This document shows positions 15,645 through 31,033 of a stretch of 64,000 bases of DNA, piece by piece. The stretch is from positions 113,605 to 177,604 of the forward strand of contig JAYPKL010000001.1 of NCBI GenBank assembly GCA_038128845.1, written 5' to 3'. The position numbers and the translations under genes are program-made. The DNA is from Candidatus Woesearchaeota archaeon (GTDB taxonomy: Archaea; Nanobdellota; Nanobdellia; UBA10117; ARS21). How positions within the stretch are numbered: position 1 is the first letter of the stretch; each line of letters opens with the position of its first letter. The notes under the pieces were generated by a model. It did not search any database. It worked only from the letters and a program-made list of their open reading frames with translations, and had not been told where the DNA came from.

Positions 15645-15770
15645 ATGTCTAGACAACGCATATCGATAACTATCGATAAGAAGCTTTTGAATTGGGTTGA
15701 CAAGCAAGTCAAAGAAAAAAGATTTGCTAGCAGATCTCATGCATTGGAGTATTTATTAGCAAATGACTAA
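15645..15770 (+). CDS. ribbon-helix-helix (CopG/Arc-like) small DNA-binding protein, 41 aa
   Basis: MSRQRISITIDKKLLNWVDKQVKEKRFASRSHALEYLLAND: beta-strand ISITID + helix + SRSHALEYLL helix is the RHH signature. Its stop overlaps the giant-gene ATG (ATGACTAA). Not in the ORF track (<60 aa). Confidence 0.55.
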   Translation: MSRQRISITIDKKLLNWVDKQVKEKRFASRSHALEYLLAND

Positions 15771-18700
15771 GCCAAATTTTTTCCTAGGTAATTCTATTAT
15801 TGTTTTAGCTAGTTTGGTTGTTTTTATTTCTGCATTACTTTTACCATATAATCCTAATTTTGAAGGCTTCACACTAAGTGATCCTCAAGTATTAATTGAG
15901 AAATTTCCATCAAGCGTTTCACAAAGTGAAGTGCATGAGGCAGATAATAAAGTCGGTCTAACCGATTTTATTTCTGCTTTAAATTCAGGTTCTATTATTA
16001 CAGGTATGGCAGGAGGTTTACCAGGTCAATGTGCTTTAGTTAGCGAAGATCCTCAAGAAGTTGAGCAATTTTGTACTGGTTTTGTAGTACCTTTTTCAGT
16101 ATATAATGACGGTACATTCTGTTATCAAGATGCAAGGGATCCTGAAAATGCAGCTGCAAATGAATTTTATTGTAATAATGGAGAACCAAGTGCAATCGTC
16201 GGAGATTATATTGGACCGCCCTACGAACCACCACCTCCTTCTAATAATGCACCAACTTGGACACAAACAATAACTCATCCAACAGTTAATGAAGATTCAG
16301 GATCAACAATTGTTGACTCTGATTTAACTTCTAGCGGAAATGGTCAGTGTACGGATCCGGACGTCGGACAAACATTAATTTTTTCAGTTACATCAGAAAA
16401 TACTGCACAAGTTGATTGCGCAGTATCAGGTAATGCGTTAACAGTTACTCCCGCATCAAATTGGTTTGGTACAGCATCATGTACAATAACTTGTGATGAT
16501 GGAAATGGCGGAACTGCTGATGATACTCTGAGCATTACCGTAAACTCTGTGAATGATGCACCTGTTTTAACCGGAATTCCTGATCAAACACTAAGTCATA
16601 CTGCTTCATTAAATAATCTAATTGATCTTTATTCAAATCATAGCGATGTAGATGGTTCGGATGCTGCAACTACATTCACAATTAGTTCCGAAACAGATAC
16701 TTCGGTTGTAGATTGTTCTATTGATAGTGATAGATATGTTGATTGTACTTATGGAGATATGATCGGATCTTCAGATTATTCAGATATAACGATTACTGCC
16801 ACTGATGCAGGAAGCTTGACTGATACAGATACATTCAGAGTTACATTAACAAATATAGAACCAACAACAACAACTCCAACAATTTCACCAAGTTCTCCTT
16901 CTTCTGACGATGATTTAACAGGTTCAAGTTCATTAAGTGATTCGGACGGAGATTCTGTGAATTCAATTTTTGATTGGAGATTTTCCGGAACTTCATTTGC
17001 ATCATTAAATTTACCATTTGATACAAATCCTTCCAGTTCTACACTTAATGATTATACTAGTTACAATAATGATTTCACAAAAAATGGTGCCACATGGCAA
17101 AATAGCGCAACATGTGGACTAACTGGTTCAGGCGGATGTATGGAATTTGACGGTACAAACGACAGACTAACTAGAGCAGATGATTCAGATTTTGATAGCT
17201 TAACTGCATTATCTGTATGTGCATGGGTTTACCCTCACAGCTGGGGCGGAGCAACTGCTGCAGATTATATTTTTGATAAGAGACATGGTTCAAGTCCTTG
17301 GAATTCCGTGGCACTTTTTTTTCACGGAACAGGAGATAAATTAAGATTGGATTTGGGAGCAATAGACGGTACAAATTATGTTTTAGATTATGATTATCCT
17401 TCGGGAGATTTTCCAACAGGAAGTTGGCAATTTGTGTGTGGTACTTGGGATAGCACAAGTACAAATATGACAATATATTATAACGGTGCTAAAGCGAATT
17501 CAACAGGTACTACCTACGGCGGTACATTATTGGATGCAAACGATAAAGCAGTCATAGGAGTATTAGGAGATGAATTTCAGCACTGGTTTGACGGATATAT
17601 GGATAATATTCAATTTTATAACAAAGCCTTATCTTCACAACAAATTTCATCAATGTACGGTTCAGGAACTCCAAATTATGCAGTTTTAGTTTCAGAAGAA
17701 ACAAATGAGGCGGACTCAATAACTGTTACAATTACACCAAGTGATGCAATTGAAGACGGAACTTCTTCAACATCTTCTGCTTCAGTGGTTGCATCAAACT
17801 CTGCTCCAGTTGCTGCCGGTGCTTCACTTGCCGTTGATGAAGACACAACTCTTTCCGATACATTGACTGCAACAGATGCGGAGGGAGATCCATTAACTTT
17901 TTCCATAGTTTCACAAGCATCAAACGGAGTCGCTACAATTACAAACTCTGCAACTGGAGCTTTCAACTATGTTCCGGGCGCAAATTATACTGGAACAGAT
18001 TCATTTACTTTCAAAGCAAATGATGGAACAGCTGATTCGAATATTGAAACAATAAATATTTTAGTAAACCCTGTGAATGATGAACCAGTTTTAACTTCAA
18101 AATTATTATCAATTACTGGAAGTTCTCCATATTACACAACTGAATCTTTTACAGCATCTGCAACAGCATCTGATGTTGATGGAGACACATTAACATTCAT
18201 GTACGATTATAGATTTGATGGAAATTCAGACAGAGTTCTTCATTTATCTTTTGATACAAATACTTCCGAAAATTCAACCGATTATACTTCTTATTCAAAT
18301 GACGCAATAATAAATACGTCCGGAGCATATGATTCAAATGTTCATCCTGTTTGGACTTCTTCCGGAATCAAAGGAGGAGCATATGATTTTACAAATGTAG
18401 ACGATCATGATGCAGCTCATTCAAGTACAAATACTTTGAGAATTCCTTGGGATGAAAGTACATATGACTTAACTCAAGATCTATCTATTTGTTGGTGGAT
18501 GTATCCAACAAATATTGATCCTACCGGATCTACACAAGATAGACAAAACCCAATTTCAAAACATTATAGAGCAGAATTTCAATTCACGCTAGAGACCGAT
18601 GCAAGATTGAATTATTATCATGGTAATTCAAATCCAAATGGTACCACTTCAATTTATAGTTCTCACAGATTACTAAATGTTGGAGCAGTCACAGAAAATG

Positions 18701-21426
18701 ATTGGAATTTTGTTTGTATGGTCAGAGATGATTCCAACAAATGGGTATCCGGATTTTTAGACGGATCATTAAATAGAAATGAAACATATGATTTAATTGA
18801 TACTAATGACCCTTCCTTAGGTTATAGAGAACCAAATTCAGGAGCGGGAAATACATATTATGAAGATATATTAATTGGAGATGGTTATTCAAATCCGTTT
18901 ATCGGAAAAATTGATGAAGTAATGATTTGGAACAAAAAAATATCTGCAGAATATATTTTGTCAATGTATAATTCCGGAACTCCAGATTATTCAGTTTTAG
19001 TTTCACAAGAAACAAGAAAAGGAAATTATAATGTTAGCGTTACGCCTAGCGACGGAACAATTGACGGATCTTCAGGAATTACAAATACAATTGAAATTGT
19101 TAATTTGGCACCAACTTCCAGCACACCTGTTCTTCTTGCTTCAGATGATCCAGATAATAAAACAACAGCAGATTTAAGCGTAACAAACAATTTAGTAGAA
19201 CAAGATCCAGAAGATACTGAAACAAGAAGTTTCACAGAATGGTTTGTTGATTCCATTTCAACTTTAGAATTCTTTTACACTTTTTTCTTTAACTCAACTA
19301 CTGCCGAAGATTTGTCCAGTAATTCTGCAAATGGTACTTTATCCGATATAAATATGTATTACGGAACAGGCATACTTGATGGTGCAATTAATTTTGAACA
19401 AAATTCACAATATTATGTAGATTTAACTGCAAATAATTTTGATTTAACTAATGGAAAAACCCTTACTTTTTGGTATAAGTTAGCAGATAGTACAACAGTG
19501 AGTACGGGCTGTTATGCACCAAGTAGTTCTCAAGAAAGTTGTTATGGTATTTTTTCCAGCGGATCGAGTGGATCTTGGGACAATTATTTGAATTTACGTG
19601 TAGTTGGAACAAATCAAGCAGATATTCAATATGAATTACACGATGGTTCAAGCTTTGGAACACCAGGTTTTGACACAGACAGCACTTCATGGCACATGAT
19701 TGCACTTTCAATTGAATCAGGAAGTTTAAATTTATACCATGACGGACTTGTAATTGGCTCAGCACCTTTCGAAGAAGGTAAAAGAATAGACTTAAGCTAT
19801 TTAGGTATGGGATATGGAGGAGCAGATGATCCTCCTGCAAATGGTCAATTCTACGGACAATTAGACGAAGTTTCATTATTCACAAGAGCTCTACAGGGAG
19901 AACAAATTTTGGCAATTTATAATTCAGGTACTCCGTCTTATGACGAAATTGTTGCAGAAGAAACATTAAAAGGAGAAGATTGGAGCGTAGAAATAACGCC
20001 TATTGATAGAGAAGATTCAGGATCAACTGTGACCTCCAATACCGTTACTATTGAAAACACTGCACCAACAACTCCTTCAGGTTCTACATTATCGCCTTCT
20101 ACATTAAAAGTTGGAAATACATTAACAGCAACAGGAGCAGGATCAACTGACGCAGACGGAGATAGCTTAACATATTATTATGAATTTAGAAGTAATTCGG
20201 CTTCAGGAACAATACTACAAGCTTATTCAACAACCAATACTTACACAGTAGCTCAAAGTGATTCAGGAACTACAATTTATGTGAATATTAAAGCAAATGA
20301 CGCCACTGATGACTCATCTGCTGAAACTGTTTCAAAGGCAGTTTCAAATACTGCACCAACAATCGCCGGAACAGATATTACAATAAACGGTCAAGAAGAT
20401 ACAGATTTAATTTTTGGAACTGTTAATTTCACAACAAGTGCATCTTACAGTGATGCAGACGGAGATGCATTTGCAGGAATAAGAATTACGAGTGCGCCAA
20501 CAAATGGAGATTTATTTAATGGGGCAACTCAATTAACCGGTACAGGTTTACAATGTAATACGATTGTTTTGGGAGGATGTTCGGCTTATAATTTATTTGT
20601 ATCTTCATCAGATATTGCTTCAGGGAATTTTAAATTTGTACCTGACCCAAATGTTAACGGTAATACTGTTGCTGCATTCGGTTTCAATGTATATGATGGA
20701 ACAGAATATTCTTCCGGAGTTGGAACTTCAATTGTGATTAATTTAGGATCAGTTAATGATGCTCCAGTTGCTGTAGATGATGAATACTCTCTAGACTCAG
20801 GTAATACTTTAACAGTTTCAGCATCAGGCGTACTTACAAATGACTCTGATGTTGACGGAAATTCATTAACAACTGTTTTAGGAGTACCTCCTTCAGGAGC
20901 TTCAAGTTTTACACTTAACTCCGATGGAAGTTTCACATATGTTTCAGATCCAACATACTCTGGAGCCACAGATAGTTTCACGTATAGAGCAAATGACGGT
21001 TCTCTTAATTCGAATGTGGCAAATGTTACGATAAATCTTGCTAAAACAATTTCAATTGCACTTTCAAATTCACTTTCTACTGCTTTGACATTTAGTGCTT
21101 CACAAGCAAATGCCCAATTCAGCGGATCGGGTAATGACGATTATCATGTTAACTTAACTGCAAATGGAACAGCAGCAAATTTATCAATTAAAGCATCAGG
21201 TCCTTTATCTGACGGCGGATCAAACTCAATTGCATTATCAAATTTCAAATATAATTATACTGGATCATCAACTCCAGTAGCATTATCAACTTCAGAAACA
21301 AATACAACTAAATCATTTGCAGGTGTCTTAAAACAAACATTCTTTGAATTTTTTATAGACGTCCCAGCTAGCCAATCTGCAGGAACTTATACAAATACCA
21401 TTACATTTAGAGGTGAAACCTTGTAA
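15763..21426 (+). CDS. giant cell-surface protein (1887 aa): N-terminal signal anchor, three LamG/concanavalin-A-like modules, cadherin-like/VCBS-type repeats
   Basis: N-terminal TM (IIVLASLVVFISALLL). Three ~450-aa paralogous modules each ending in the Laminin_G_3 hallmark (MDNIQFYNKALSSQQISSMYGSGTPNY; IDEVMIWNKKISAEYILSMYNSGTPDY; LDEVSLFTRALQGEQILAIYNSGTPSY). Repeated VNDAPV/VNDEPV and DAPVAVDD...TNDSDVDGNSL motifs (cadherin-like/VCBS adhesin repeats). Thr/Ser/Asp-rich. Confidence 0.8.
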   Translation: MTKPNFFLGNSIIVLASLVVFISALLLPYNPNFEGFTLSDPQVLIEKFPSSVSQSEVHEADNKVGLTDFISALNSGSIITGMAGGLPGQCALVSEDPQEVEQFCTGFVVPFSVYNDGTFCYQDARDPENAAANEFYCNNGEPSAIVGDYIGPPYEPPPPSNNAPTWTQTITHPTVNEDSGSTIVDSDLTSSGNGQCTDPDVGQTLIFSVTSENTAQVDCAVSGNALTVTPASNWFGTASCTITCDDGNGGTADDTLSITVNSVNDAPVLTGIPDQTLSHTASLNNLIDLYSNHSDVDGSDAATTFTISSETDTSVVDCSIDSDRYVDCTYGDMIGSSDYSDITITATDAGSLTDTDTFRVTLTNIEPTTTTPTISPSSPSSDDDLTGSSSLSDSDGDSVNSIFDWRFSGTSFASLNLPFDTNPSSSTLNDYTSYNNDFTKNGATWQNSATCGLTGSGGCMEFDGTNDRLTRADDSDFDSLTALSVCAWVYPHSWGGATAADYIFDKRHGSSPWNSVALFFHGTGDKLRLDLGAIDGTNYVLDYDYPSGDFPTGSWQFVCGTWDSTSTNMTIYYNGAKANSTGTTYGGTLLDANDKAVIGVLGDEFQHWFDGYMDNIQFYNKALSSQQISSMYGSGTPNYAVLVSEETNEADSITVTITPSDAIEDGTSSTSSASVVASNSAPVAAGASLAVDEDTTLSDTLTATDAEGDPLTFSIVSQASNGVATITNSATGAFNYVPGANYTGTDSFTFKANDGTADSNIETINILVNPVNDEPVLTSKLLSITGSSPYYTTESFTASATASDVDGDTLTFMYDYRFDGNSDRVLHLSFDTNTSENSTDYTSYSNDAIINTSGAYDSNVHPVWTSSGIKGGAYDFTNVDDHDAAHSSTNTLRIPWDESTYDLTQDLSICWWMYPTNIDPTGSTQDRQNPISKHYRAEFQFTLETDARLNYYHGNSNPNGTTSIYSSHRLLNVGAVTENDWNFVCMVRDDSNKWVSGFLDGSLNRNETYDLIDTNDPSLGYREPNSGAGNTYYEDILIGDGYSNPFIGKIDEVMIWNKKISAEYILSMYNSGTPDYSVLVSQETRKGNYNVSVTPSDGTIDGSSGITNTIEIVNLAPTSSTPVLLASDDPDNKTTADLSVTNNLVEQDPEDTETRSFTEWFVDSISTLEFFYTFFFNSTTAEDLSSNSANGTLSDINMYYGTGILDGAINFEQNSQYYVDLTANNFDLTNGKTLTFWYKLADSTTVSTGCYAPSSSQESCYGIFSSGSSGSWDNYLNLRVVGTNQADIQYELHDGSSFGTPGFDTDSTSWHMIALSIESGSLNLYHDGLVIGSAPFEEGKRIDLSYLGMGYGGADDPPANGQFYGQLDEVSLFTRALQGEQILAIYNSGTPSYDEIVAEETLKGEDWSVEITPIDREDSGSTVTSNTVTIENTAPTTPSGSTLSPSTLKVGNTLTATGAGSTDADGDSLTYYYEFRSNSASGTILQAYSTTNTYTVAQSDSGTTIYVNIKANDATDDSSAETVSKAVSNTAPTIAGTDITINGQEDTDLIFGTVNFTTSASYSDADGDAFAGIRITSAPTNGDLFNGATQLTGTGLQCNTIVLGGCSAYNLFVSSSDIASGNFKFVPDPNVNGNTVAAFGFNVYDGTEYSSGVGTSIVINLGSVNDAPVAVDDEYSLDSGNTLTVSASGVLTNDSDVDGNSLTTVLGVPPSGASSFTLNSDGSFTYVSDPTYSGATDSFTYRANDGSLNSNVANVTINLAKTISIALSNSLSTALTFSASQANAQFSGSGNDDYHVNLTANGTAANLSIKASGPLSDGGSNSIALSNFKYNYTGSSTPVALSTSETNTTKSFAGVLKQTFFEFFIDVPASQSAGTYTNTITFRGETL

Positions 21427-22288: not shown

Positions 22289-22774
22289 GTGGATAGTTTG
22301 AAGAATAACTTGTCAGATAGACATATTTACGTATTTAGCACTAGAAACCTCTCTGCAACTGAACGTGTAAAATTTCATTATGCTCTCAGGGGAAGAAATA
22401 ATCCCGGTATTCTTGAACAAACAAACTCAAAATATTTATCCAAAACAATTATTGAAACATCTGAAAAAAATACAAAAACTATAGCTGAATTTCTAGAAAA
22501 TTGGAATTGTTCTTATAATCTTCTAAAATTATCCAAAGGTAAATCACATCTTCTTGTGAAGTATTCTACCACCCAATTGAATTCTACACAATTAGTACAA
22601 TTTACTTACGGACTTTATGGAAGAAGCAAACCAGGTTTGATAAAAAAAGATTCTAAAGAGAAACTTTCCAAAGGTTATTTTTTACTAAAAAAAGATAACA
22701 GCAAAGAAATTTTAGAATTTTTGAACCACTGGAATTGTGAATTATTAATTGAGGAGGTGGATTTAAATGAATAA
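22289..22774 (+). CDS. cytoplasmic protein built from two tandem copies of an uncharacterised ~70-aa domain
   Basis: Copy 1 HIYVFSTRNLSATERVKFHYALRGRNNPGIL...EFLENWNCSYNLLKL. Copy 2 HLLVKYSTTQLNSTQLVQFTYGLYGRSKPGLI...EFLNHWNCELLIEEV. No TM. Confidence 0.45.
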   Translation: MDSLKNNLSDRHIYVFSTRNLSATERVKFHYALRGRNNPGILEQTNSKYLSKTIIETSEKNTKTIAEFLENWNCSYNLLKLSKGKSHLLVKYSTTQLNSTQLVQFTYGLYGRSKPGLIKKDSKEKLSKGYFLLKKDNSKEILEFLNHWNCELLIEEVDLNE

Positions 22775-23537
22775 TAACCAACTCAATTACAAAAGAAACG
22801 AATTAATTGGTAAACATAATCGAAGACTTAAGAGAATAACTTTACTAAACCAACAACTTAAAGCAGGTTTAATTACTTACGAAGAATATTCAAGAAGATA
22901 TGATGAGTTAACAAACAATAAACCAATTTCACATCATGAAAATCTTCTGAATAGAAGACTGGATCAAATTAGTAATCTAGGTTATAGAGAAAAGAGTAAG
23001 ATAAAGTTACTTCCATTAATCTTTGGACTAATTATGTTACCGGCATTAATTGGAATTGGAATAACCGGATTTGCAACTACTGGCGATCAAGATGTTACTG
23101 CAACATTAACAATTAGCAATAACATTGCAGGAAGTTTAAGTTATTCGGGAGTAACATTTACAGATACTAATTTACTTGGCGATAATAATGCTACTTTGAA
23201 TAATCTTGGAAGTTCAGCACCAGGATATACAATTGAGCTAGATGACAGTACGACTGTGAATAATCTCAATGTATGTATTAATGGTACAGATTTAACTTCT
23301 GGATCAAATACAATTGATGTAAGCAGGATAGAAGTATCTTCAAGCTTAACTGGAAGTTCAACAATACCGGCAAAGAGTTCAAGTATTGATTTATCCACCT
23401 CAAGACAAGAAATAGAAGGAGACTTGGATGCGGGAGAAACTCTTTACCAAAGATATTGGTTAGATTTAAGCGGAGGTACACAAACTGGAACATATACTGG
23501 TACATCCGAAATATTAATTACAGAAAATGCATGTTAA
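22767..23537 (+). CDS. bitopic membrane protein: cytoplasmic coiled N-domain, one TM, Thr/Ser-rich extracellular domain
   Basis: TM LLPLIFGLIMLPALIGIGITGF then ATTGDQDVTATLTISNN... . Overlaps the upstream gene by 8 nt. Confidence 0.45.
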   Translation: MNNNQLNYKRNELIGKHNRRLKRITLLNQQLKAGLITYEEYSRRYDELTNNKPISHHENLLNRRLDQISNLGYREKSKIKLLPLIFGLIMLPALIGIGITGFATTGDQDVTATLTISNNIAGSLSYSGVTFTDTNLLGDNNATLNNLGSSAPGYTIELDDSTTVNNLNVCINGTDLTSGSNTIDVSRIEVSSSLTGSSTIPAKSSSIDLSTSRQEIEGDLDAGETLYQRYWLDLSGGTQTGTYTGTSEILITENAC

Positions 23538-23598
23538 AGAAAAATTTGATAAAATATTCAATTTTTTATCAATAATCTTTTATATAAAAAATAAATAT

Positions 23599-23808
23599 AT
23601 GATTATGAATAACAAAAATATGTACGCGTATATATTGTTAGGAGCTGTTTTATTAGCAGGTGTTGCCGGATATATGATGGCAGACCAAGCAGATTCTGAC
23701 ACAGTTATTTTGCCAGACACCAATGAAGTGTTAATTACTGTTACAATAGCAGGTAATTCACTTGATGCAGATGTCACTACGGAGGATAATTATGGCTCGA
23801 GCACGTAG
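23599..23808 (+). CDS. small signal-anchored secreted peptide
   Basis: MIMNNKNMYAYILLGAVLLAGVAGYMMADQADSDTVILPDT... . Likely start at internal Met of the tracked 93-aa ORF. Overlaps the next gene. Confidence 0.3.
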   Translation: MIMNNKNMYAYILLGAVLLAGVAGYMMADQADSDTVILPDTNEVLITVTIAGNSLDADVTTEDNYGSST

Positions 23809-24346
23809 AAATGATGATATGATGAAACTTGCAGCAATTTCTGCAGCAGTTTCATTAGTAGTTGTTTTAGTTTTTTTTGGAGGTACATTGACAGGAAATT
23901 CTTCTACTGATGTAACTCTAACTACAACTATTGCTGCCACTACAACATGTACATTTAATGAAACAGCCGTAACTTTCGGAGCTTTAAATCTTGAAACAAA
24001 TTCTCAATCTCCTGATGCAGGTGATATTATTGAAGTTGTCAACGACGGTTCTACAATCGTAAATATGACTGCTGCTTTAAATCAAACTGCAACAAGTTTA
24101 TTGGGTACTACTACTGGAACTTCTGCATTGGATATAGCCGTTACAGCTGAATCAGGTACTGCAAGCAGTTTAACTGCCTTAGGAACATCAGCAACAGATG
24201 CTGTTACTTTGTTATTACCTGACGATGCAACAGATGCAGTAACACTTACGACCACTATTGACGTAGGTGGAGGAGCATCTAATGTAGGTATAGCAAATGA
24301 AGCACTAATTTCATTTGTTTGTACCGCAGATGTTGACGGAAGTTAA
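23792..24346 (+). CDS. secreted Thr-rich protein with N-terminal signal anchor
   Basis: GGAGGA SD-like then MARARRNDDMMKLAAISAAVSLVVVLVFFGGTLTGNSSTDVTLTTTIAATTT... . Low-complexity T/A/S-rich ectodomain. Confidence 0.45.
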   Translation: MARARRNDDMMKLAAISAAVSLVVVLVFFGGTLTGNSSTDVTLTTTIAATTTCTFNETAVTFGALNLETNSQSPDAGDIIEVVNDGSTIVNMTAALNQTATSLLGTTTGTSALDIAVTAESGTASSLTALGTSATDAVTLLLPDDATDAVTLTTTIDVGGGASNVGIANEALISFVCTADVDGS

Positions 24347-24874
24347 TTGGTAAAATTAAAATTTAGGAGTATCTTTTGGATACTTCTTATTTTTTTTTCA
24401 ATAAATCATGTTTTTTCTTATTCTTTACTCGGACCTCATGAAACATTCACAGTAATTCCTGAAAAAAAATATTCTGGAGAAATATGTATTGGCGCATTCG
24501 GCGATCAAGATTTATTTAATAGAACTTTTCTATATTCATTTGAAAGTAATGATACTGTATTTGTTAATTTCACAATGGACAAAGAAGTAACATCAGATAA
24601 ACGAGATAAATTTTGTAATTCTTATTATTTTTTTGGCGGAGAGTATACTTCTTCAGTAAGTAAAAGTCCTGCTGCTGCAATATTGGTTTCCGAAAAAGTA
24701 GATAGCGGTATTGTTATGGGATACAAAAGAATCATATATGCGGATACTTCTTCTGTGACTTATCGACACGCACTTATCAATCTTTCAAAAAATTTTATTT
24801 TTGTTTTTGTATCTATATTTTCAGTTTTTGGATTAATATTATATATTTTAAAAAAGAATAAATTTAATGAATAA
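24347..24874 (+). CDS. secreted protein with C-terminal TM anchor
   Basis: N-terminal hydrophobic FWILLIFFSINHVFS. C-terminal helix FIFVFVSIFSVFGLILYIL + KKNK. Confidence 0.4.
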   Translation: MVKLKFRSIFWILLIFFSINHVFSYSLLGPHETFTVIPEKKYSGEICIGAFGDQDLFNRTFLYSFESNDTVFVNFTMDKEVTSDKRDKFCNSYYFFGGEYTSSVSKSPAAAILVSEKVDSGIVMGYKRIIYADTSSVTYRHALINLSKNFIFVFVSIFSVFGLILYILKKNKFNE

Positions 24875-26725: not shown

Positions 26726-27241
26726 ATGGTGATAAAAACCGTATTACGGAAAGTATTTAGGAAAAAAACTAAAAAGAACTCTAAAAAAGAAGTAAAAGAT
26801 CACAAAGTTCTAAGTTCTTGGGAAGATATGTATGAAGAATTACAAGAACATCCATTAACTCAAGCCAAAATAATTAATGAAACTTTATTTAAGAACACAA
26901 ATAACGCAATTGAAAAAATAAACATTAGATTAGATGGCATTGATGATAGATTAACAAGACTTGAAAAAAGAAAAGTTAAATCAGGTTCTGAAGAAGTTAT
27001 TGTAGTTAAAGAAGAATCAGATGTTTTAATCAAGCCAATTTTAGATAAAGGAAGATTATCTGATCAAGAAGAATTAATTCTAGAAATGATTAAAGAACAA
27101 GGAGAGGTTGATGCTAAATCAGTTTCCAATAAATTTGATATATCCAGAGGTAATGCAAGCCTTAAATTAAACAAGCTTCATGATTTTGGTTTATTAAGTA
27201 AAAGAATGGATGATAAGACTGTATTTTATTTATTAAAATAA
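26726..27241 (+). CDS. putative DNA-binding protein with C-terminal winged helix-turn-helix
   Basis: Basic N-terminus (KVFRKKTKKNSKK), central coiled coil, C-terminal ELILEMIKEQGEVDAKSVSNKFDISRGNASLKLNKLHDFGLLSKR (wHTH-like). Confidence 0.4.
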   Translation: MVIKTVLRKVFRKKTKKNSKKEVKDHKVLSSWEDMYEELQEHPLTQAKIINETLFKNTNNAIEKINIRLDGIDDRLTRLEKRKVKSGSEEVIVVKEESDVLIKPILDKGRLSDQEELILEMIKEQGEVDAKSVSNKFDISRGNASLKLNKLHDFGLLSKRMDDKTVFYLLK

Positions 27242-27259
27242 CTAATTTTTTATTAAAAC

Positions 27260-28060
27260 TTATAATAAATCTAAAGGTGACTTTATTTTCTTTAATTCTT
27301 GGTTTGAAAGATGAGTATATACTTGCGTTGTATTAAGATTAGAATGCCCGAGAAGTGCCTGTATTTTTCTTATATCTGTGCCGTTTTCAAGTAGATGTGT
27401 TGCAAAGCTATGTCTTAAGGTATGTACATGTACATCTTTTTTTATTCCTGCTGCATTTGCACATTCTTTTACTACTTTTTGTATGTATCTTTTTGAAACA
27501 GGTTTATTTTCAAATCTTCCAGGAAAAAGATATCCTTCATGTGCAGCTAATATGGGTTTTAAGTCTTTGATCAAGTCATCTGATAAAATTATCATTCGAT
27601 CTTTCTGCCCTTTACCTTTTCTAACCCATCCAATTTTTTCTTTTATTTCAAAATCATTTGTTGTTATTTTTTGTATCTCCGATAGTCTTAAACCGGATGA
27701 ATACAATAGTTTAATTAATAATTTATGCTTCTTGTCTTTTGCAGAATTAATAAGTGCTCTAACTTCATCTATTTGAAGCACAGAGGGTAGGGTAAAAGGT
27801 ATTTTAGGGGCCTTGATTTTGATGTTTTTACCTAAAACATCTCTGTAATAAAATATTAGTGCAGATCTAACTAATGAAACAGATCTTGCAGAATATTTTT
27901 TTGTAATGAGAGATCCTAGATATTCTTTAAGATCATTTTCTGTTATATTCTTTGGATCTTTATTAATTTCATCAAGAAATTTTTTATTATGACTTAAGTA
28001 TGATTTAATTGTTTCCGGACTAAATCCTCTCATTTTTAGTTCAGATTCTAATCGATACAT
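27260..28060 (-). CDS. XerA/XerCD-family tyrosine recombinase (integrase)
   Basis: C-terminal catalytic signature HTLRHSFATHLLENGTDIRKIQALLGHSNLNTTQVYTHL with upstream R...K residues. N-terminal SAM-like core-binding domain. 266 aa. Confidence 0.8.
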   Translation of the reverse strand: MYRLESELKMRGFSPETIKSYLSHNKKFLDEINKDPKNITENDLKEYLGSLITKKYSARSVSLVRSALIFYYRDVLGKNIKIKAPKIPFTLPSVLQIDEVRALINSAKDKKHKLLIKLLYSSGLRLSEIQKITTNDFEIKEKIGWVRKGKGQKDRMIILSDDLIKDLKPILAAHEGYLFPGRFENKPVSKRYIQKVVKECANAAGIKKDVHVHTLRHSFATHLLENGTDIRKIQALLGHSNLNTTQVYTHLSNQELKKIKSPLDLL

Positions 28061-28154
28061 ATAGTATATTATATTAAATTATTATAAAATTAACGAGTTC
28101 GTATAATATACATTAGACGAACAAACTATATTTTAGCTTTATTTTACATTTTTA

Positions 28155-28331
28155 TTAATTAATTACAATATTGTAAATAAATATATTAAATTTTAATAAT
28201 TTATTATAACTTTTAATACGATATAACTGAATTAAAATTAATCAAAAATTTACAATTATTAATTACAATATTGAAAATAAATAAAGAAAATATTAATTAA
28301 TTACAATATTGAAAATAAATACAAATAAATA
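28155..28331. repeat. three copies of TTAATTACAATATTG(T/A)AAATAAATA; first copy contains the perfect 14-bp palindrome TTACAATATTGTAA
   Basis: Copies start near 28159, 28258 and 28298, in the divergent intergenic region between the recombinase gene and the 28352 ORF. Confidence 0.6.
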
Positions 28332-28351
28332 ATTTGTAATTATTATTATAT

Positions 28352-28789
28352 ATGAAAAAACTACAGTCAAAAGATATTCCGTTACAGGAAATAATTTTAC
28401 GTAGGTTTGAATCACCATACGGAATGGATGATAGAGAATTGGCACGTAAATTTTTGCTATCTTTAGGCTTACTTCAGACTGGCGAAAGCAGAGATATTAT
28501 AGTAGACTTATTCTTAATTTTACTAAAATCTAAAAAAAACACATCACCCAAAGACATTAATTTTTTTGTAAATGAATTAAAAGATCTTCCGGGCGGATCT
28601 AAACCAAATTTATTAAGACAAATAAAAAGATTAAGAGATATTAAGTTAGTAGAAAAAGTTCAACAAGGATATAGAATTACAGAGTTTGGAAGATTAGACA
28701 ACATTGTATCAAATTATATAACTCCCTTTATTGTAAACCAAACTATCGAACGAGTTAGAGAATATGCAAAGGAGATTGACAGAAGATGA
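28352..28789 (+). CDS. hypothetical protein (possible helical DNA-binding protein)
   Basis: 145 aa, no TM, no recognisable catalytic motif. 4-nt overlap with the next ORF. Confidence 0.35.
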   Translation: MKKLQSKDIPLQEIILRRFESPYGMDDRELARKFLLSLGLLQTGESRDIIVDLFLILLKSKKNTSPKDINFFVNELKDLPGGSKPNLLRQIKRLRDIKLVEKVQQGYRITEFGRLDNIVSNYITPFIVNQTIERVREYAKEIDRR

Positions 28790-29007
28790 AAAAATTATTC
28801 GGAATTATAGAAATAAGCTATAGCTCAGAAGGAAATAAATTTTGTTTTAAAAAATTATTACAAAAAGGAATTTTTTTTAATAAATATGGAGAACCTCAGT
28901 TCACTAGATCTAAAAATTTACAAGAATTACATAAAAAAATTAAATTAGGTTATAGATCAACAAAATTAGAAATTAAAAAATTAAAAGTATATGAAATAAT
29001 TAAGTAA
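28786..29007 (+). CDS. hypothetical small basic protein
   Basis: 73 aa, Lys-rich, coupled to the upstream ORF. Confidence 0.25.
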   Translation: MKKLFGIIEISYSSEGNKFCFKKLLQKGIFFNKYGEPQFTRSKNLQELHKKIKLGYRSTKLEIKKLKVYEIIK

Positions 29008-29019
29008 GAACCGAAGTTC

Positions 29020-29307
29020 TTACATTAATATTTTACCCAAGTCTTCAAAACTATTTGCGACTTGTTCGCCTTTTCCAGTCAATTGAACAATTTTCAATCT
29101 TCCGTTTTTTTCGAATCTAACTAATCCTTCTTGTTCCATTTTTTGTAATAAATGAACCGTATGGGAATAAGTACATCTTGCTTCTTTTGCAAGTAGCGAT
29201 GGGTACTTTGCCGTGTTTTGACGAGTCAAACAAAGCAACAATTCAACGGGCTTATCCCTTAAAAATATATCAAAACTTTTTCCTTTTTTCCACCAAAGAA
29301 GTGCCAT
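29020..29307 (-). CDS. winged-helix transcriptional regulator (ArsR/SmtB-like)
   Basis: LLLCLTRQNTAKYPSLLAKEARCTYSHTVHLLQKMEQEGLVRF: HTH with recognition helix + wing (GRLKIVQLTGKG). Confidence 0.5.
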   Translation of the reverse strand: MALLWWKKGKSFDIFLRDKPVELLLCLTRQNTAKYPSLLAKEARCTYSHTVHLLQKMEQEGLVRFEKNGRLKIVQLTGKGEQVANSFEDLGKILM

Positions 29308-29385
29308 TTAAATTTGTACTGAGTAAAATATATATAGCTTTCTCAAGGCTTTACGTAATGTGTTTTTTTATTAAAATAACAGTAG

Positions 29386-29790
29386 TTACTCTTTTGGTAC
29401 AACTTTTGGTAAATGAATCGGAGCAGGTAAGCCCAATGTTTTAGAGATTAAAACTGAATTTGTCATACCTAATTCAAATATTTTTCTTAAAACTGCAACT
29501 GCAACATTATCATCTAATTTTTTATTTTTCTTGTAATTTTTTTCTACTGTTTTTAATGCATCTCCATTACCTGTTATAAATAATGATCCTTCAACATTAA
29601 TGCTAGTATCTTTAGAATATGAAGTTGTATATGTATATTCAACAGATAAACCTAATTTTTTTTCACCTGCAGCAAATAAATCTTTAGTTTTAACAGACTT
29701 AATTTCAGGTTTACTTTCTATTGTACCGATTTTTGACTTGTCACCTCTTTGAGCAACAATTTTTGTAATTTTATCTCCTACGATTATCAT
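29386..29790 (-). CDS. hypothetical protein
   Basis: 134 aa, soluble, no recognised motif. Confidence 0.3.
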   Translation of the reverse strand: MIIVGDKITKIVAQRGDKSKIGTIESKPEIKSVKTKDLFAAGEKKLGLSVEYTYTTSYSKDTSINVEGSLFITGNGDALKTVEKNYKKNKKLDDNVAVAVLRKIFELGMTNSVLISKTLGLPAPIHLPKVVPKE

Positions 29791-29814
29791 TTTTGTAAGT
29801 GTTTTACTTCTTTT

Positions 29815-30990
29815 TTAAATATTATTGTTTTTCATTTTATTTAAATAAAAATAGTAAATTATTACAAAAATAGAAAATATGCCAAAAATAAAAATAAGAT
29901 TTTTATTATTCTCTTTTAGACTTATATCTTTTTCAGAAATACAAACGCCATCATTACAACTATTTAATCGACATTCGTAATCATAATTACATTCAGATCC
30001 TCCAACCTTCTTCGGATAATATTTAAATCCATCACAATAGAATGAAAGATTGTTTTCAAATTTTTCTTCACCTTTTTCACAAAAGGATGAATCAATTTTT
30101 TGTGGAGCTTCACAATCATTATCGTTCATATAGTTACAATTATAACTACAATATCCGTCATTATCTTTACAAATATCATTGTTTGTAAATTGGCATGTTT
30201 TTGGAATCAAGACGCCATCTCCGAAACAAATATCATCAGTAGATATATTAAGATCATTACAATCAATATCCGATATACATTCATTTAGTATATTACAATC
30301 TGAATCCTTGAATTCAAATAATTTTGAATTTTTTGAGCAACCTTCTGGACAACATTCATCCGAACCATCGCATTCAGTAATTTCATTATACTCACATCGC
30401 CCCGAATTTAGATTATCTCCATTACAAGTATCAATCGTACAACTATTTCCATCATCACAATCATTATCAGAATTACAGAAGTTTTTGCAATCATTATCCG
30501 CTCTATCAGAACATTTATTTGGACAATATCCATCATTATCTATACAAGACGTTATTTCTTCATATTTGCAAATATTTTTATCAAGATTACAGGTATCAAG
30601 AGTACTAATATCGCCATCATCACAATCAGAATTTGTTGTACATTGAAATTTATTTAAAATAATTATGTTAAGACTAACATATCTTTCATCAGGAGTATAA
30701 ACTATATCTTCTATTGTTAAATTAACTTCTTGCAACTTCAAAGTTTCATTTATTCTTAATATTTTATTATCTGAATAATCAACTGATACTAAAATTGCTT
30801 CTTCGAATATATTTTTTACCGATATATTTCTTCCATCTAATAAGACACTATCATTTTCATTTAATAGTTCAACTTCTTCAGTTAAAGAAAAAACAATAGG
30901 AAAAATAAATAAAAGAAATAATATTTTTTTCATATTATTATTTTTAATATTCATTAATAATAGCTCCGGCCGGATTTGAACCGGCGTCAT
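29815..30990 (-). CDS. cysteine-rich repeat surface protein (signal peptide, ~50 Cys in repeated CxxDxDCDDGNxCTxDxC modules, C-terminal TM)
   Basis: Signal MKKILFLLFIFPIVFS. Repeated TNSDCDDGDISTLDTCN / SDNDCDDGNSCTIDTCN / SDIDCNDLNISTDDICF modules. C-terminal helix IFIFGIFSIFVIIYYFYL. Confidence 0.5.
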   Translation of the reverse strand: MTPVQIRPELLLMNIKNNNMKKILFLLFIFPIVFSLTEEVELLNENDSVLLDGRNISVKNIFEEAILVSVDYSDNKILRINETLKLQEVNLTIEDIVYTPDERYVSLNIIILNKFQCTTNSDCDDGDISTLDTCNLDKNICKYEEITSCIDNDGYCPNKCSDRADNDCKNFCNSDNDCDDGNSCTIDTCNGDNLNSGRCEYNEITECDGSDECCPEGCSKNSKLFEFKDSDCNILNECISDIDCNDLNISTDDICFGDGVLIPKTCQFTNNDICKDNDGYCSYNCNYMNDNDCEAPQKIDSSFCEKGEEKFENNLSFYCDGFKYYPKKVGGSECNYDYECRLNSCNDGVCISEKDISLKENNKNLIFIFGIFSIFVIIYYFYLNKMKNNNI

Positions 30991-31033
30991 CCGGCCCAGA
31001 ACCGGATATGATTGACCGCTACACTACGGAGCT
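30962..31033 (-). tRNA. tRNA-Gln (anticodon CUG)
   Basis: Reverse complement AGCTCCGTAGTGTAGCGGTCAATCATATCCGGTTCTGGGCCGGATGACGCCGGTTCAAATCCGGCCGGAGCTA. Anticodon loop TTCTGGG. 7-bp acceptor stem. Confidence 0.8.

What the first reader, a model, noticed from the sequence alone, without database searches (positions are those of the whole stretch)
27260..29307. XerA-like tyrosine recombinase with a triplicated palindrome-containing repeat and flanking wHTH genes: mobile-element remnant or xer/dif locus
The recombinase (266 aa, full R..H..R..Y catalytic C-terminus) is divergently oriented to ORF 28352. The intergenic region carries three copies of TTAATTACAATATTG(T/A)AAATAAATA; the first includes the perfect palindrome TTACAATATTGTAA. 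An additional GTTCGT...ACGAAC inverted repeat lies right next to the recombinase ATG. Downstream are two small hypothetical ORFs and an ArsR-like wHTH on the opposite strand. Together with the iteron-like array (finding above) and the nearby tRNA-Gln 3' end at 30962, this 21.4-31 kb stretch could be an integrated element or accessory island. Alternatively the repeats could be the chromosomal dif/XerA site.
Basis: partly seen in the sequence, partly recalled or inferred. Interest (0 to 1): 0.55.

Follow-up and report, generated by a model that had tools for sequence, protein, structure and literature searches.

The report
Archaeal xerA–dif chromosome-resolution locus
This is the ordinary chromosomal XerA recombinase gene of a small marine DPANN archaeon sitting next to its own 28-bp dif target, with a conserved block of three palindromic protein-binding repeats beside it; it is not a mobile element.

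Summary
ORF 27260-28060(-) is a bona fide XerA: it scores above the NCBIfam XerA equivalog cut-off and its best PDB match is P. abyssi XerA. The mobile-element reading fails. There is no tRNA-Gln att repeat, no compositional deviation and no viral similarity, and the 21-33 kb block is collinear in many related contigs.

The xer/dif reading holds, but the site is different. The dif is the "additional" inverted repeat at 28096-28123, TGTTCGTCTAA-TGTATA-TTATACGAACT. It has the 11-6-11 layout and the TAA-N6-TTA hallmark, and is 20/28 identical to E. coli dif. A pattern scan of metagenomes found it in 41 contigs. In 31 of them an archaeal-type XerA homologue (44-100% identity) lies beside it; most of the rest are cut at the site or look bacterial.

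The triplicated 25-nt repeat is not dif. It belongs to a conserved 250-300 bp non-coding cassette (sites A and B, a BRE/TATA-like block D, site C, then dif) on the 5' side of the xerA operon. It is found only in relatives with XerA at or above about 58% identity. Most likely it holds operator sites for a dimeric DNA-binding protein. A cer/psi-like or SMC-boundary accessory role is not excluded.

This is a new member of a known kind, of moderate interest.

The parts
27260..28060 (-). xerA, archaeal Xer tyrosine recombinase (266 aa)
   Evidence: NCBIfam NF040815 recomb_XerA_Arch scores 242.7 bits against a cut-off of 220. The best PDB match is 4A8E, P. abyssi XerA, at E = 1e-45. Pfam finds SAM-like N-terminal and catalytic domains. 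Catalytic motifs GLR125, GKGQK153, H213TLR216, GH239 and VY248 are present.
28079..28089 (-). TATA-like element (TTTTATAATAA) at -29 to -19 from the xerA ATG; putative promoter of a leaderless xerA mRNA
   Evidence: Read directly from the sequence. An A/T-rich element sits at the equivalent position in the aligned relatives. This is an inference; no promoter tool for archaea was available.
28096..28123 (-). dif-like XerA target: TGTTCGTCTAA-TGTATA-TTATACGAACT (11-bp arms with 9/11 dyad symmetry, 6-bp spacer)
   Evidence: It is unique in the window and is the window's best match to E. coli dif at 20/28. Most of its columns are invariant across 23 distinct cassette sequences from three clades. 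A pattern scan found it in 41 metagenome contigs, 31 of them with an adjacent archaeal-type XerA. It also lies next to xerA in L060.
28156..28184 (+). repeat copy 1, called site C here; contains the perfect palindrome TTACAATATTGTAA; its centre is 60 bp from the dif centre
   Evidence: It is conserved in all relatives with XerA at 65% identity or above, and is recognisable in L060 and L057.
28184..28220 (-). block D: a conserved AT-rich BRE/TATA-like element (on the xerA-sense strand CGTATTAAAAGTTATAATAAATTATTAAAATTTAATATAT) immediately 5' of site C
   Evidence: It shows up as a phylogenetic footprint. An nhmmer profile of the D-C block finds one strong copy per related locus. The promoter reading is an inference.
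28259..28283 (+). repeat copy 2, called site B here
   Evidence: The B-C spacing varies (100-123 bp). B is deleted in L025.
28297..28321 (+). repeat copy 3, called site A here; lies 31-55 nt upstream of the wHTH145 ATG in this lineage
   Evidence: The A-B spacing is conserved at 37-39 bp. The half-sites of A differ between clades: TTTCAATATTGTAA here, TTGTTAATATTAACAA in the L008 clade.
28352..28789 (+). wHTH145, a winged-helix protein of a DPANN-wide family; divergent neighbour of xerA
   Evidence: 165 homologues were found in Woesearchaeota, Pacearchaeota and Nanoarchaeota. The AF2 model has pLDDT 82 and a generic wHTH fold, with no close solved relative. It is not linked to xerA in distant lineages.
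29020..29307 (-). wHTH95, a small winged-helix protein that is exceptionally conserved
   Evidence: Pfam HTH_27 matches above its cut-off and WHD_DUF6293 matches weakly. It is 90-100% identical in relatives whose XerA is only 66-73% identical.
26726..27241 (+). wHTH171, with a basic N-terminus and a C-terminal ArsR/Lrs14-like wHTH; convergent with xerA
   Evidence: Only weak ArsR, MarR and Lrs14 matches. It sits immediately 3' of xerA in all relatives down to 50% identity.

Best explanation
The locus is the chromosomal xerA-dif module of an AT-rich marine DPANN archaeon (Nanoarchaeota/Woesearchaeota).

XerA (27260-28060, minus strand) most likely acts on the 28-bp site at 28096-28123. Two XerA monomers would bind the two 11-bp arms and exchange strands across the 6-bp TGTATA spacer, resolving chromosome dimers. 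This mechanism is inferred from P. abyssi, T. acidophilum and T. kodakarensis XerA/dif.

Because dif sits directly upstream of the TATA-like element of xerA, XerA bound there probably also modulates its own transcription. That step is inferred too.

The triplicated 25-nt repeat is a separate element: three near-palindromic sites (core CAATATTG with T-rich and A-rich flanks). They lie in a conserved 250-300 bp non-coding cassette ordered A, 37-39 bp, B, a variable 100-123 bp stretch, BRE/TATA-like block D, C, 60-112 bp, then dif. The cassette lies 5' of the xerA operon.

The sites are most likely bound by a dimeric DNA-binding protein. Site C overlaps the expected transcription start of the D promoter, so the protein would control transcription running through dif into xerA. 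In this lineage it could also control the divergent wHTH145 gene. One of the three syntenic winged-helix proteins is the obvious candidate; wHTH95 is as invariant as the motif.

The surrounding 21-33 kb is ordinary conserved chromosome, not an island.
For: XerA identity:
- It passes the XerA equivalog cut-off.
- P. abyssi and T. acidophilum XerA are the top solved relatives.

dif:
- It has 11-6-11 geometry and the TAA-N6-TTA hallmark used for archaeal dif in PMC11840125.
- Its spacer is identical to that of E. coli dif. Overall identity to E. coli dif is 20/28 in the window. By my own hand count of the L009 sequence it is 22/28 there. The E. coli string was confirmed.
- Most of its columns are invariant within otherwise diverged AT-rich intergenic DNA.
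- The site-anchored metagenome scan gave 41 contigs. In 31 an archaeal-type XerA homologue of 44-100% identity lies within about 1.3 kb, usually 20-500 bp. Three further contigs from human gut carry a 25%-identical recombinase instead.
- XerA-anchored look-ups also recover the site in L060 and L059.
- xerA/dif modules and dif upstream of the xerA operon are documented in other archaea (PMC5357621; PMC11840125).

Not an island.

Cassette:
- A, B, D and C are conserved across three clades whether the upstream gene is wHTH145 or an inserted epimerase.
- In L060 a small ORF separates C from dif, and C stays about 35 nt upstream of the first gene of the operon. This fits a promoter/operator role.
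- D contains canonical TTTATATA-type boxes. That is a direct reading of the alignment against general knowledge of archaeal promoters.
Against: - No experiment exists, and there are no binding data for XerA or any of the wHTH proteins.
- The generic 11-6-11/TAA-TTA pattern is common in this AT-rich DNA: 17 hits in 64 kb. Four unrelated 28-mers reach 19/28 against E. coli dif. The case therefore rests on conservation and linkage, not on the pattern itself.
- The site matches P. abyssi and T. kodakarensis dif no better than background.
- A terminus location could not be shown. GC and oligomer skews follow gene orientation only.
- Single copy per genome cannot be checked from 64 kb.
- Several XerA loci at 50-58% identity have no such site within 3-6 kb: L003, L004, L057, L058, L061, L062 and L063.
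- Against a simple operator role: sites A-C lie 100-290 nt upstream of the xerA TATA. In L057 a C-like site sits between the 3' ends of convergent genes, with no ORF or Rfam RNA nearby.
- wHTH145 homologues in distant lineages carry no such motif upstream.
Confidence: 0.72

Rival explanations
1. The A-B-D-C cassette is an accessory or architectural region for dif rather than a transcriptional operator. Proteins bound to the three palindromes would act on one side of the core site. They might build a cer/psi-like interwrapped synapse that restricts XerA to intramolecular resolution. Alternatively they might act as a roadblock that positions SMC at dif, as TrmBL2 does in T. kodakarensis. Either role would supply the directionality control that FtsK-less archaea lack.
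For: - In three clades the cassette stays attached to dif while genes are inserted outside the unit: an epimerase to the left of A, ORF101 to the right of dif.
- The sites span about 60-250 bp on one side of the core. This is the scale of the cer/psi accessory sequences, which I recall from memory and did not check in a paper.
- The C-dif distances of 60, 102 and 112 bp differ by about 4, 5 and 1 helical turns.
- In L057 the C-like site lies in a non-promoter, convergent intergenic AT island next to xerA.
- Cortez et al. proposed that repeats flanking Thermococcales dif bind a partner (PMC2958812).
- dif-flanking DNA forms an SMC boundary in T. kodakarensis (PMC11840125).
Against: - In L060 an ORF separates C from dif by about 330 bp.
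- The B-C spacing is not phase-conserved, and B is deleted in L025.
- The cassette is absent from the 44-56% XerA lineages that keep dif next to xerA.
- The phasing argument rests on three independent distances only.
- No homologue of PepA, ArgR or ArcA was examined, and TrmBL2 appears only as a weak TrmB-family match of wHTH171.
Confidence: 0.2
2. The xerA-adjacent site is only an autoregulatory XerA operator or a non-functional binding site. The recombination-competent dif lies elsewhere, at the terminus.
For: - T. acidophilum has two XerA-binding sites, of which only one recombines (PMC11840125).
- Thermococcales dif is not next to xerA (PMC2958812).
- The site abuts the xerA TATA-like element.
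- Lineages without a full adjacent site keep half-site-like words just upstream of the xerA ATG.
- No terminus signal is seen here.
Against: - The full 28-bp, two-arm, 6-bp-spacer structure is conserved with an invariant spacer core. That is more constraint than an operator needs.
- In L009, L035, L040 and L059 the site is 0.3-1.5 kb from xerA, with other ORFs in between, so it is not tied to the xerA promoter.
- Adjacent xerA/dif modules are accepted as functional dif in other single-recombinase systems (XerS/difSL, XerH/difH; PMC5357621).
Confidence: 0.1
3. The locus is the remnant of an integrated element or accessory island, with the recombinase as its integrase and the repeats as att or arm-type sites.
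For: A tyrosine recombinase lies next to repeats, small hypothetical ORFs and HTH genes. A tRNA gene is 3 kb away. The neighbouring surface-protein genes evolve fast.
Against: - The recombinase is an XerA equivalog.
- There is no att duplication.
- There is no GC deviation.
- Synteny is complete in relatives from 99% down to about 51% protein identity.
- There is no viral or phage similarity.
- At 266 aa, XerA has no arm-binding domain.
Confidence: 0.02
4. The repeat cassette is a replication origin, with ORB-like repeats flanking an AT-rich unwinding element, that happens to lie beside xerA.
For: - It is an AT-rich intergenic region with three copies of a repeat, and its central spacer is variable and AT-rich.
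- Replication genes (RPA-like, MCM, RFC) lie 4-13 kb away.
- In L057, a 45% GC genome, the region is a distinct AT island.
Against: - The motif lacks the invariant TTCC...GAA core of ORB and mini-ORB elements (PMC1904270).
- No Orc1/Cdc6 gene was found among the ORFs annotated in the 64 kb or in any related locus.
- Flanking genes converge on the region rather than diverge from it.
- All three copies are in direct orientation.
Confidence: 0.05

Closest known systems
XerA/dif of Thermococcales (P. abyssi, T. kodakarensis) and T. acidophilum
   Same: A single XerA recombinase of the same family. The target is 28 bp with 11-bp imperfect inverted arms, a 6-bp spacer and TAA-N6-TTA. There is no FtsK partner.
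   Different: In Thermococcales dif is not next to xerA (PMC2958812). Here it is 36 nt from the start codon. The arm sequences differ: the window site does not stand out against P. abyssi or T. kodakarensis dif, and it resembles bacterial dif more (20/28; 22/28 for L009 by hand count).
Haloarchaeal dif-like element upstream of a xerA-containing operon (H. volcanii, H. salinarum; PMC11840125) and the 'individual xerA/dif module' noted in PMC5357621
   Same: dif lies immediately 5' of the xerA transcription unit. In relatives (L009, L035, L040, L060) small ORFs join xerA in an apparent operon downstream of, or around, dif.
   Different: The phylum differs (DPANN). The site sequence differs. There is an additional conserved cassette of three palindromic sites, which those papers do not describe.
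Bacterial single-recombinase modules XerS/difSL and XerH/difH
   Same: One recombinase gene is genetically linked to its own site as a module (PMC5357621).
   Different: Those recombinases are about 355 aa, FtsK-dependent and only distantly related (XerS 69.6 bits, XerH 68.9 bits). Their sites have different arm and spacer lengths.
Cre/loxP and lox-like sites of small plasmid or phage recombinases
   Same: The inner 28 bp of loxP (written from memory, not checked against a paper) is 22/28 identical to the window site and 24/28 to the perfect-palindrome variant by hand count. Gut-metagenome contigs carry that palindrome next to a roughly 200-aa tyrosine recombinase.
   Different: The spacer is 6 bp here and 8 bp in loxP, and the arms are 11 bp rather than 13 bp. 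The recombinase here is an XerA orthologue in conserved chromosomal synteny, not a Cre-like phage or plasmid enzyme.
cer/psi accessory sequences (PepA/ArgR/ArcA-dependent Xer sites of plasmids)
   Same: About 150-250 bp of conserved protein-binding DNA lies on one side of a Xer core site.
   Different: No accessory proteins are identified here. Linkage to the core is broken in L060 and L057. This is a working analogy, not a membership claim.

Membership tests
XerA (archaeal Xer recombinase) | Scores above the curated equivalog threshold of NF040815 recomb_XerA_Arch | tested here: met
   242.7 bits against a cut-off of 220, covering residues 5-259 of 266.
XerA (archaeal Xer recombinase) | SAM-like core-binding domain plus a catalytic domain with R-K-H-R-H-Y | tested here: met
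   Pfam PF13495 and PF00589 match. R125, K153, H213, R216, H239 and Y248 are present, and the sequence aligns with 4A8E and 5HXY.
XerA (archaeal Xer recombinase) | Chromosomally encoded and vertically inherited in conserved context | tested here: met
   Neighbourhoods are collinear in more than 20 contigs with XerA at 59-99% identity.
XerA (archaeal Xer recombinase) | Recombines dif and resolves dimers | not testable with these tools
   Needs purified protein or genetics.
dif (Xer core site) | 28 bp: two 11-bp imperfect inverted repeats and a 6-bp spacer | tested here: met
   TGTTCGTCTAA/TGTATA/TTATACGAACT has 9/11 dyad matches.
dif (Xer core site) | TAA-N6-TTA inner-arm hallmark of archaeal and bacterial dif (PMC11840125 methods) | tested here: met
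   Present in the window and in every variant found.
dif (Xer core site) | Conserved among relatives and non-coding | tested here: met
   Most of the 28 columns are invariant in 23 distinct sequences. The pattern scan found 41 metagenome contigs.
dif (Xer core site) | Single copy per chromosome | tested here: inconclusive
   Unique in the 64-kb window, and one match per related contig. The whole genome was not available.
dif (Xer core site) | Located at the replication terminus or a skew inversion | tested here: inconclusive
   Cumulative GC skew peaks at 26-28 kb and genes converge there. However, skew flips with every change of gene strand (38, 48 kb). GTTG and GTTC show no inversion at the site.
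dif (Xer core site) | Bound and cleaved by the cognate Xer | not testable with these tools
   Needs EMSA and recombination assays.
   Read as 11-6-11 it gives TAC-N6-GTA. It has three copies. It is 12/28 identical to the true site by hand count, which is at about chance level. It is absent from the 44-56% XerA loci that keep dif.
Integrated mobile element or tRNA-targeting island | att direct repeats derived from the tRNA 3' half | tested here: not met
   No repeat of 16 nt or more. All 12-14-nt matches fall in the AT-rich flanks, not in the tRNA body.
Integrated mobile element or tRNA-targeting island | Presence/absence polymorphism among relatives; atypical composition; viral or plasmid gene content | tested here: not met
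   The block is collinear in all relatives. GC is 0.25-0.34, like the flanks. There were no phage or IMG/VR hits.
cer/psi-type accessory region | Accessory protein-binding DNA fixed on one side of the core site | tested here: inconclusive
   The geometry is met in three clades, but C is separated from dif in L060 and displaced in L057.
cer/psi-type accessory region | Accessory proteins impose resolution selectivity | not testable with these tools
   Needs biochemistry and product topology analysis.
Archaeal oriC (ORB/mini-ORB) | Repeats with the conserved TTCC...GAA core; adjacent orc1/cdc6 | tested here: not met
   The motif is TTWCAATATTGWAA and has no TTCC. No Orc1/Cdc6 was found among the ORFs annotated in the window or in related loci.

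The most novel reading that the evidence does not exclude
The three palindromic sites and block D would form a dif-accessory region. A small winged-helix protein bound there would give XerA recombination its directionality in an organism without FtsK, either through a cer/psi-like topological filter or by stalling SMC at dif. That would be the first sequence-defined accessory element for an archaeal Xer system.
Probability: 0.18. Interest if true: 0.75.

Novelty: new member of a known kind. Interest (0 to 1): 0.4.

Why it matters
It supplies a concrete, well-supported dif sequence and xerA-dif module for marine Nanoarchaeota/Woesearchaeota. I found no DPANN dif described in the searchable literature.

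The site is closer to bacterial dif and loxP than to Thermococcales dif. This bears on how Xer sites evolved.

It gives a practical marker for the dimer-resolution locus in DPANN MAGs, and perhaps for the terminus. The conserved cassette beside dif is a short, testable candidate for the unknown factor that controls XerA in FtsK-less archaea.

It also removes a false mobile-element call.

Tried and rejected
- tRNA-Gln att search: nothing found.
- Rfam search of the intergenic region and of the L057 AT island: only the tRNA and sub-threshold noise.
- Generic 11-6-11/TAA-TTA scanner: too unspecific in 28% GC DNA, with 17 hits in the window, so it was not used as evidence on its own.
- GC skew and GTTG/GTTC (ASPS) polarity around the site: dominated by gene orientation and uninformative.
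- wHTH145 as the motif's binding protein: a profile search against PDB and AF2 plus Foldseek gave only a generic wHTH. Its homologues in distant lineages are not next to xerA and carry no motif upstream. The link is unproven.
- The repeat as a degenerate dif: rejected (12/28 identity by hand count, wrong hallmark).
- The repeat as ORB: rejected (no TTCC...GAA).
- IMG/VR scan with the dif pattern, looking for IMEX-like elements: no hits.
- Phage blastn of 26.7-29.3 kb: no match.
- XerA-anchored look-ups at 50-58% identity (L003, L004, L057, L058, L061-L063): no full adjacent site, so adjacency is patchy rather than universal.
Full report
**Observation.** The window is about 28% GC and reads as a DPANN archaeal chromosome. 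The nearest named relatives are MAGs labelled Nanoarchaeota and Candidatus Woesearchaeota.
- The 266-aa ORF lies at 27260-28060(-).
- Three exact copies of TTAATTACAATATTGWAAATAAATA lie at 28159, 28259 and 28297. Only 0.01 matches are expected by shuffling. The first copy holds the perfect palindrome TTACAATATTGTAA.
- A GTTCGT...ACGAAC inverted repeat lies 36 nt from the recombinase ATG.
- Winged-helix genes flank the locus on both sides.
- tRNA-Gln is at 30961-31033(-).

**The recombinase.**
- It scores 242.7 bits on NCBIfam NF040815 (recomb_XerA_Arch, equivalog, cut-off 220). It is far below the cut-offs of XerC, XerD, XerS and integron integrase.
- Its best solved relatives are P. abyssi XerA (4A8E, E = 1e-45) and T. 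acidophilum XerA (5HXY).
- The catalytic R125, K153, H213, R216, H239 and Y248 are all in place.
- At 266 aa it has only the SAM-like core-binding domain and the catalytic domain, with no arm-binding domain.

**Not a mobile element.**
- No segment of the tRNA-Gln body is repeated anywhere in the window.
- GC content of 21-31 kb is the same as elsewhere.
- The dif pattern is absent from IMG/VR, and the 2.6-kb locus has no phage match.
- Every ORF from 21.4 to 33 kb has a collinear homologue in related contigs whose XerA is 99% down to 66% identical. The order is eIF-2beta, DUF424, DUF212, Cys-rich protein, orf134, wHTH95, wHTH145, xerA, wHTH171, then a pilin-like cluster.
- L060 (XerA 59%) still has the core wHTH145-like, xerA, 172-aa arrangement.
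- The wider window is core chromosome: Topo VI A/B, rRNA operon, RPA-like, MCM, IleRS, RFC small and large subunits, FtsZ, AlaRS, HerA, Kae1 and ribosomal proteins.

**The real dif.** On the xerA-sense strand, 28123-28096 reads TGTTCGTCTAA TGTATA TTATACGAACT. It has 11-bp arms with 9/11 dyad symmetry and a 6-bp spacer. It also has the TAA-N6-TTA feature that Yamaura et al. used as the most conserved hallmark of archaeal dif (PMC11840125).

It is the best match in the window to E. coli dif GGTGCGCATAATGTATATTATGTTAAAT, at 20/28 with an identical spacer (the string was verified). By my hand count the L009-clade variant AGTGCGTTTAATGTATATTATGCGAACT reaches 22/28.

Similarity alone is weak evidence in this AT-rich DNA. 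Four chance 28-mers reach 19/28, and the generic pattern hits 17 times. It also does not stand out against P. abyssi dif (ATTGGATATAATCGGCCTTATATCTAAA, PMC2958812) or T. kodakarensis dif.

The decisive evidence is comparative.
- (a) In an alignment of 23 distinct cassette sequences from three clades, most of the 28 dif columns are invariant while the surrounding intergenic DNA has diverged or carries indels.
- (b) A scan of JGI metagenomes with GTKCGTNTAATGTATRTTATRCGAAC returned 41 contigs. In 31 of them an archaeal-type XerA homologue of 44-100% identity lies beside the site. Three contigs are cut off at the site, and seven look bacterial or phage-like (GC 37-60%). Three of those seven carry a 25%-identical recombinase next to the site.
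- (c) XerA-anchored look-ups recover the site between a small ORF and xerA in L060 (XerA 59%), and 1.45 kb upstream of xerA in L059 (56%).

Arm changes between clades are not compensatory (left-arm T4G, right-arm A22G). This is what a protein-binding site shows, not an RNA hairpin.

Adjacency is patchy. Seven other XerA loci at 50-58% identity lack a full site within 3-6 kb. Three of them keep half-site-like words just before the ATG.

Adjacent xerA/dif modules are already documented. The Castillo et al. review states that some archaea harbour "an individual xerA/dif module" (PMC5357621). Haloarchaeal dif lies upstream of a xerA operon (PMC11840125). Thermococcales dif is unlinked (PMC2958812).

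**The triplicated repeat.** It is not dif. Read as 11-6-11 it gives TAC-N6-GTA, it is multi-copy, and it shares only chance-level identity with the true site.

It is, however, clearly functional. Alignment shows a conserved cassette on the xerA-sense strand:
- site A, then 37-39 bp, then site B;
- a variable stretch that brings the B-C distance to 100-123 bp;
- block D, TTAAAAsTTwTAATAAAwwATTAAAATyTAwATATAT, which is BRE/TATA-like;
- site C, then 60, 102 or 112 bp, then dif;
- a TATA-like element and the ATG.

The common core is CAATATTG with T-rich 5' and A-rich 3' flanks. That is a typical target for a dimeric HTH protein.

The cassette is kept whether the gene on its far side is the divergent wHTH145 (window, L007, L022) or an inserted, co-directional epimerase (L001, L008, L009, L046). 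It is therefore not simply the wHTH145 operator.

In the L009 clade an extra ORF lies between dif and xerA, and the A-C-dif unit stays intact. In L060 a small membrane ORF lies between C and dif, and C stays about 35 nt upstream of that first gene. In L057 (45% GC, XerA 58%) a C-like site (TTTACAATATTGTAAT) with a D-like flank sits in an AT island 160 bp downstream of xerA. It lies between convergent genes, with no ORF or Rfam RNA there.

The motif is absent from the 44-56% XerA lineages that retain dif.

**Mechanism.**
- Shown: an XerA orthologue; a conserved dif-type site linked to it; a conserved repeat cassette.
- Inferred from the characterised XerA systems: XerA dimers bind the two arms and exchange strands at the spacer to resolve chromosome dimers.
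- Inferred from geometry: dif ends 6 nt before a TTTTATAATAA box that lies 19-29 nt from the ATG. XerA occupancy therefore probably also tunes xerA expression.

For the repeats I favour operator sites. D looks like a strong archaeal promoter pointing at dif and xerA, and C overlaps its expected start. A and B could bind cooperatively, and in this lineage they could also overlap the wHTH145 promoter. The L060 arrangement supports this reading.

The main rival (about 0.2) is an accessory or architectural role at dif. The A-C-dif unit persists through flanking insertions, the cassette spans about 250 bp on one side of the core, the C-dif distances are roughly helical-phase-compatible, and the L057 site lies in a non-promoter context. 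Published ideas point the same way: partner-binding repeats flank Thermococcales dif (PMC2958812), and a protein-dependent SMC boundary forms at dif (PMC11840125).

The binding protein is unknown. wHTH95 is as invariant as the motif, at 90-100% identity where XerA is 66%. wHTH145 belongs to a DPANN-wide family with a generic winged-helix fold. It is not linked to xerA or to the motif in distant lineages.

**Other rivals.**
- An origin of replication is unlikely: no TTCC...GAA ORB core (PMC1904270), no orc1/cdc6 found, and convergent flanking genes.
- "Operator only, true dif elsewhere" cannot be excluded from a 64-kb window, given the T. acidophilum dif1 precedent. It is disfavoured because the full two-arm, 6-bp-spacer structure is conserved, and because the site lies 0.3-1.5 kb from xerA in some lineages.

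**Limits.**
- A terminus location could not be tested. GC skew and oligomer skews track gene strand only.
- Single copy per genome could not be checked.
- No archaeal promoter predictor was available.

**Verdict.** The island reading is refuted. The xer/dif reading is supported after moving dif to 28096-28123. This is a new DPANN member of the known xerA-dif module type, with an uncharacterised conserved cassette beside it. Interest is moderate.

Noticed in passing
window 23527-24874 (compare L013 5704-7040): Three small secreted or pilin-like ORFs are only 33-49% identical to their counterparts in L013. The flanking genes (22289-22774 and everything from 26726 to 30990) are 96-100% identical. 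This is a hypervariable surface-protein cassette between near-identical strains.
   Followed up: partly
window 29020-29307 (wHTH95): This 95-aa winged-helix protein is 90-100% identical across relatives whose XerA is 66-73% identical and whose other neighbours are 50-68% identical. The constraint is unusually strong. It is a candidate binder of the equally invariant CAATATTG sites.
   Followed up: partly
L014 4173-4200, L015 11330-11357, L042 967-994, L045 9443-9470 (human-gut metagenome contigs, GC 40-41%): The perfect palindrome AGTTCGTATAATGTATATTATACGAACT is 24/28 identical by hand count to the inner 28 bp of loxP (written from memory). It lies about 40 bp upstream of a roughly 200-aa, catalytic-domain-only tyrosine recombinase. 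Extra TACGAAC half-sites and a possible antitoxin-like 116-aa ORF (a guess from its sequence, not tested) are nearby. It looks like a bacterial plasmid or phage lox/dif-like resolution module using almost the same site.
   Followed up: partly
L016, L020, L023, L031, L033, L034, L037, L043, L051 (from the pattern scan) and L011: Nine of the 41 contigs from the dif-pattern scan (L037 by a couple of bases), plus L011 from a XerA look-up, end within about 150 bp of the site. L031 starts 2 nt before dif. This is more than random placement would give. It suggests strain heterogeneity or a coverage drop in the AT-rich variable part of the cassette.
   Followed up: no
L057 3985-3995, L062 about 2975-2990, L063 about 2975-2990: XerA loci at 58% identity that lack a full adjacent dif still carry dif half-site-like words within 25 nt upstream of the xerA ATG: GGTTCGCATAA, TTAAAGCGAACT and AGTTCGCCTTAA. 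They could be remnants or autoregulatory half-sites.
   Followed up: no
L001 about 4840-5660, L008 875-1690, L009 4422-5237 and 5593-5898; L060 3640-3942; L035 and L040 between dif and xerA: The boundaries of the cassette are insertion-prone. A 271-aa NAD-dependent epimerase gene sits between wHTH145 and site A in some lineages. A 101-aa ORF sits between dif and xerA in the L009 clade. Small membrane ORFs sit between C and dif (L060) or between dif and xerA (L035, L040).
   Followed up: partly
window 29815-30990 and 30961-31033: The mechanically listed 391-aa Cys-rich ORF overlaps tRNA-Gln by 30 nt. The real start is probably the Met of MKKILFLLF, about 57 nt downstream, which begins a signal peptide.
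   Followed up: no
window 15763-21426: There is a 1887-aa secreted giant protein with repeated Asp-rich (cadherin- or LamG-like) modules. The 8-12.5 kb stretch has a GC of 0.45-0.47 and contains tRNA-Ala, so it is the rRNA operon.
   Followed up: no
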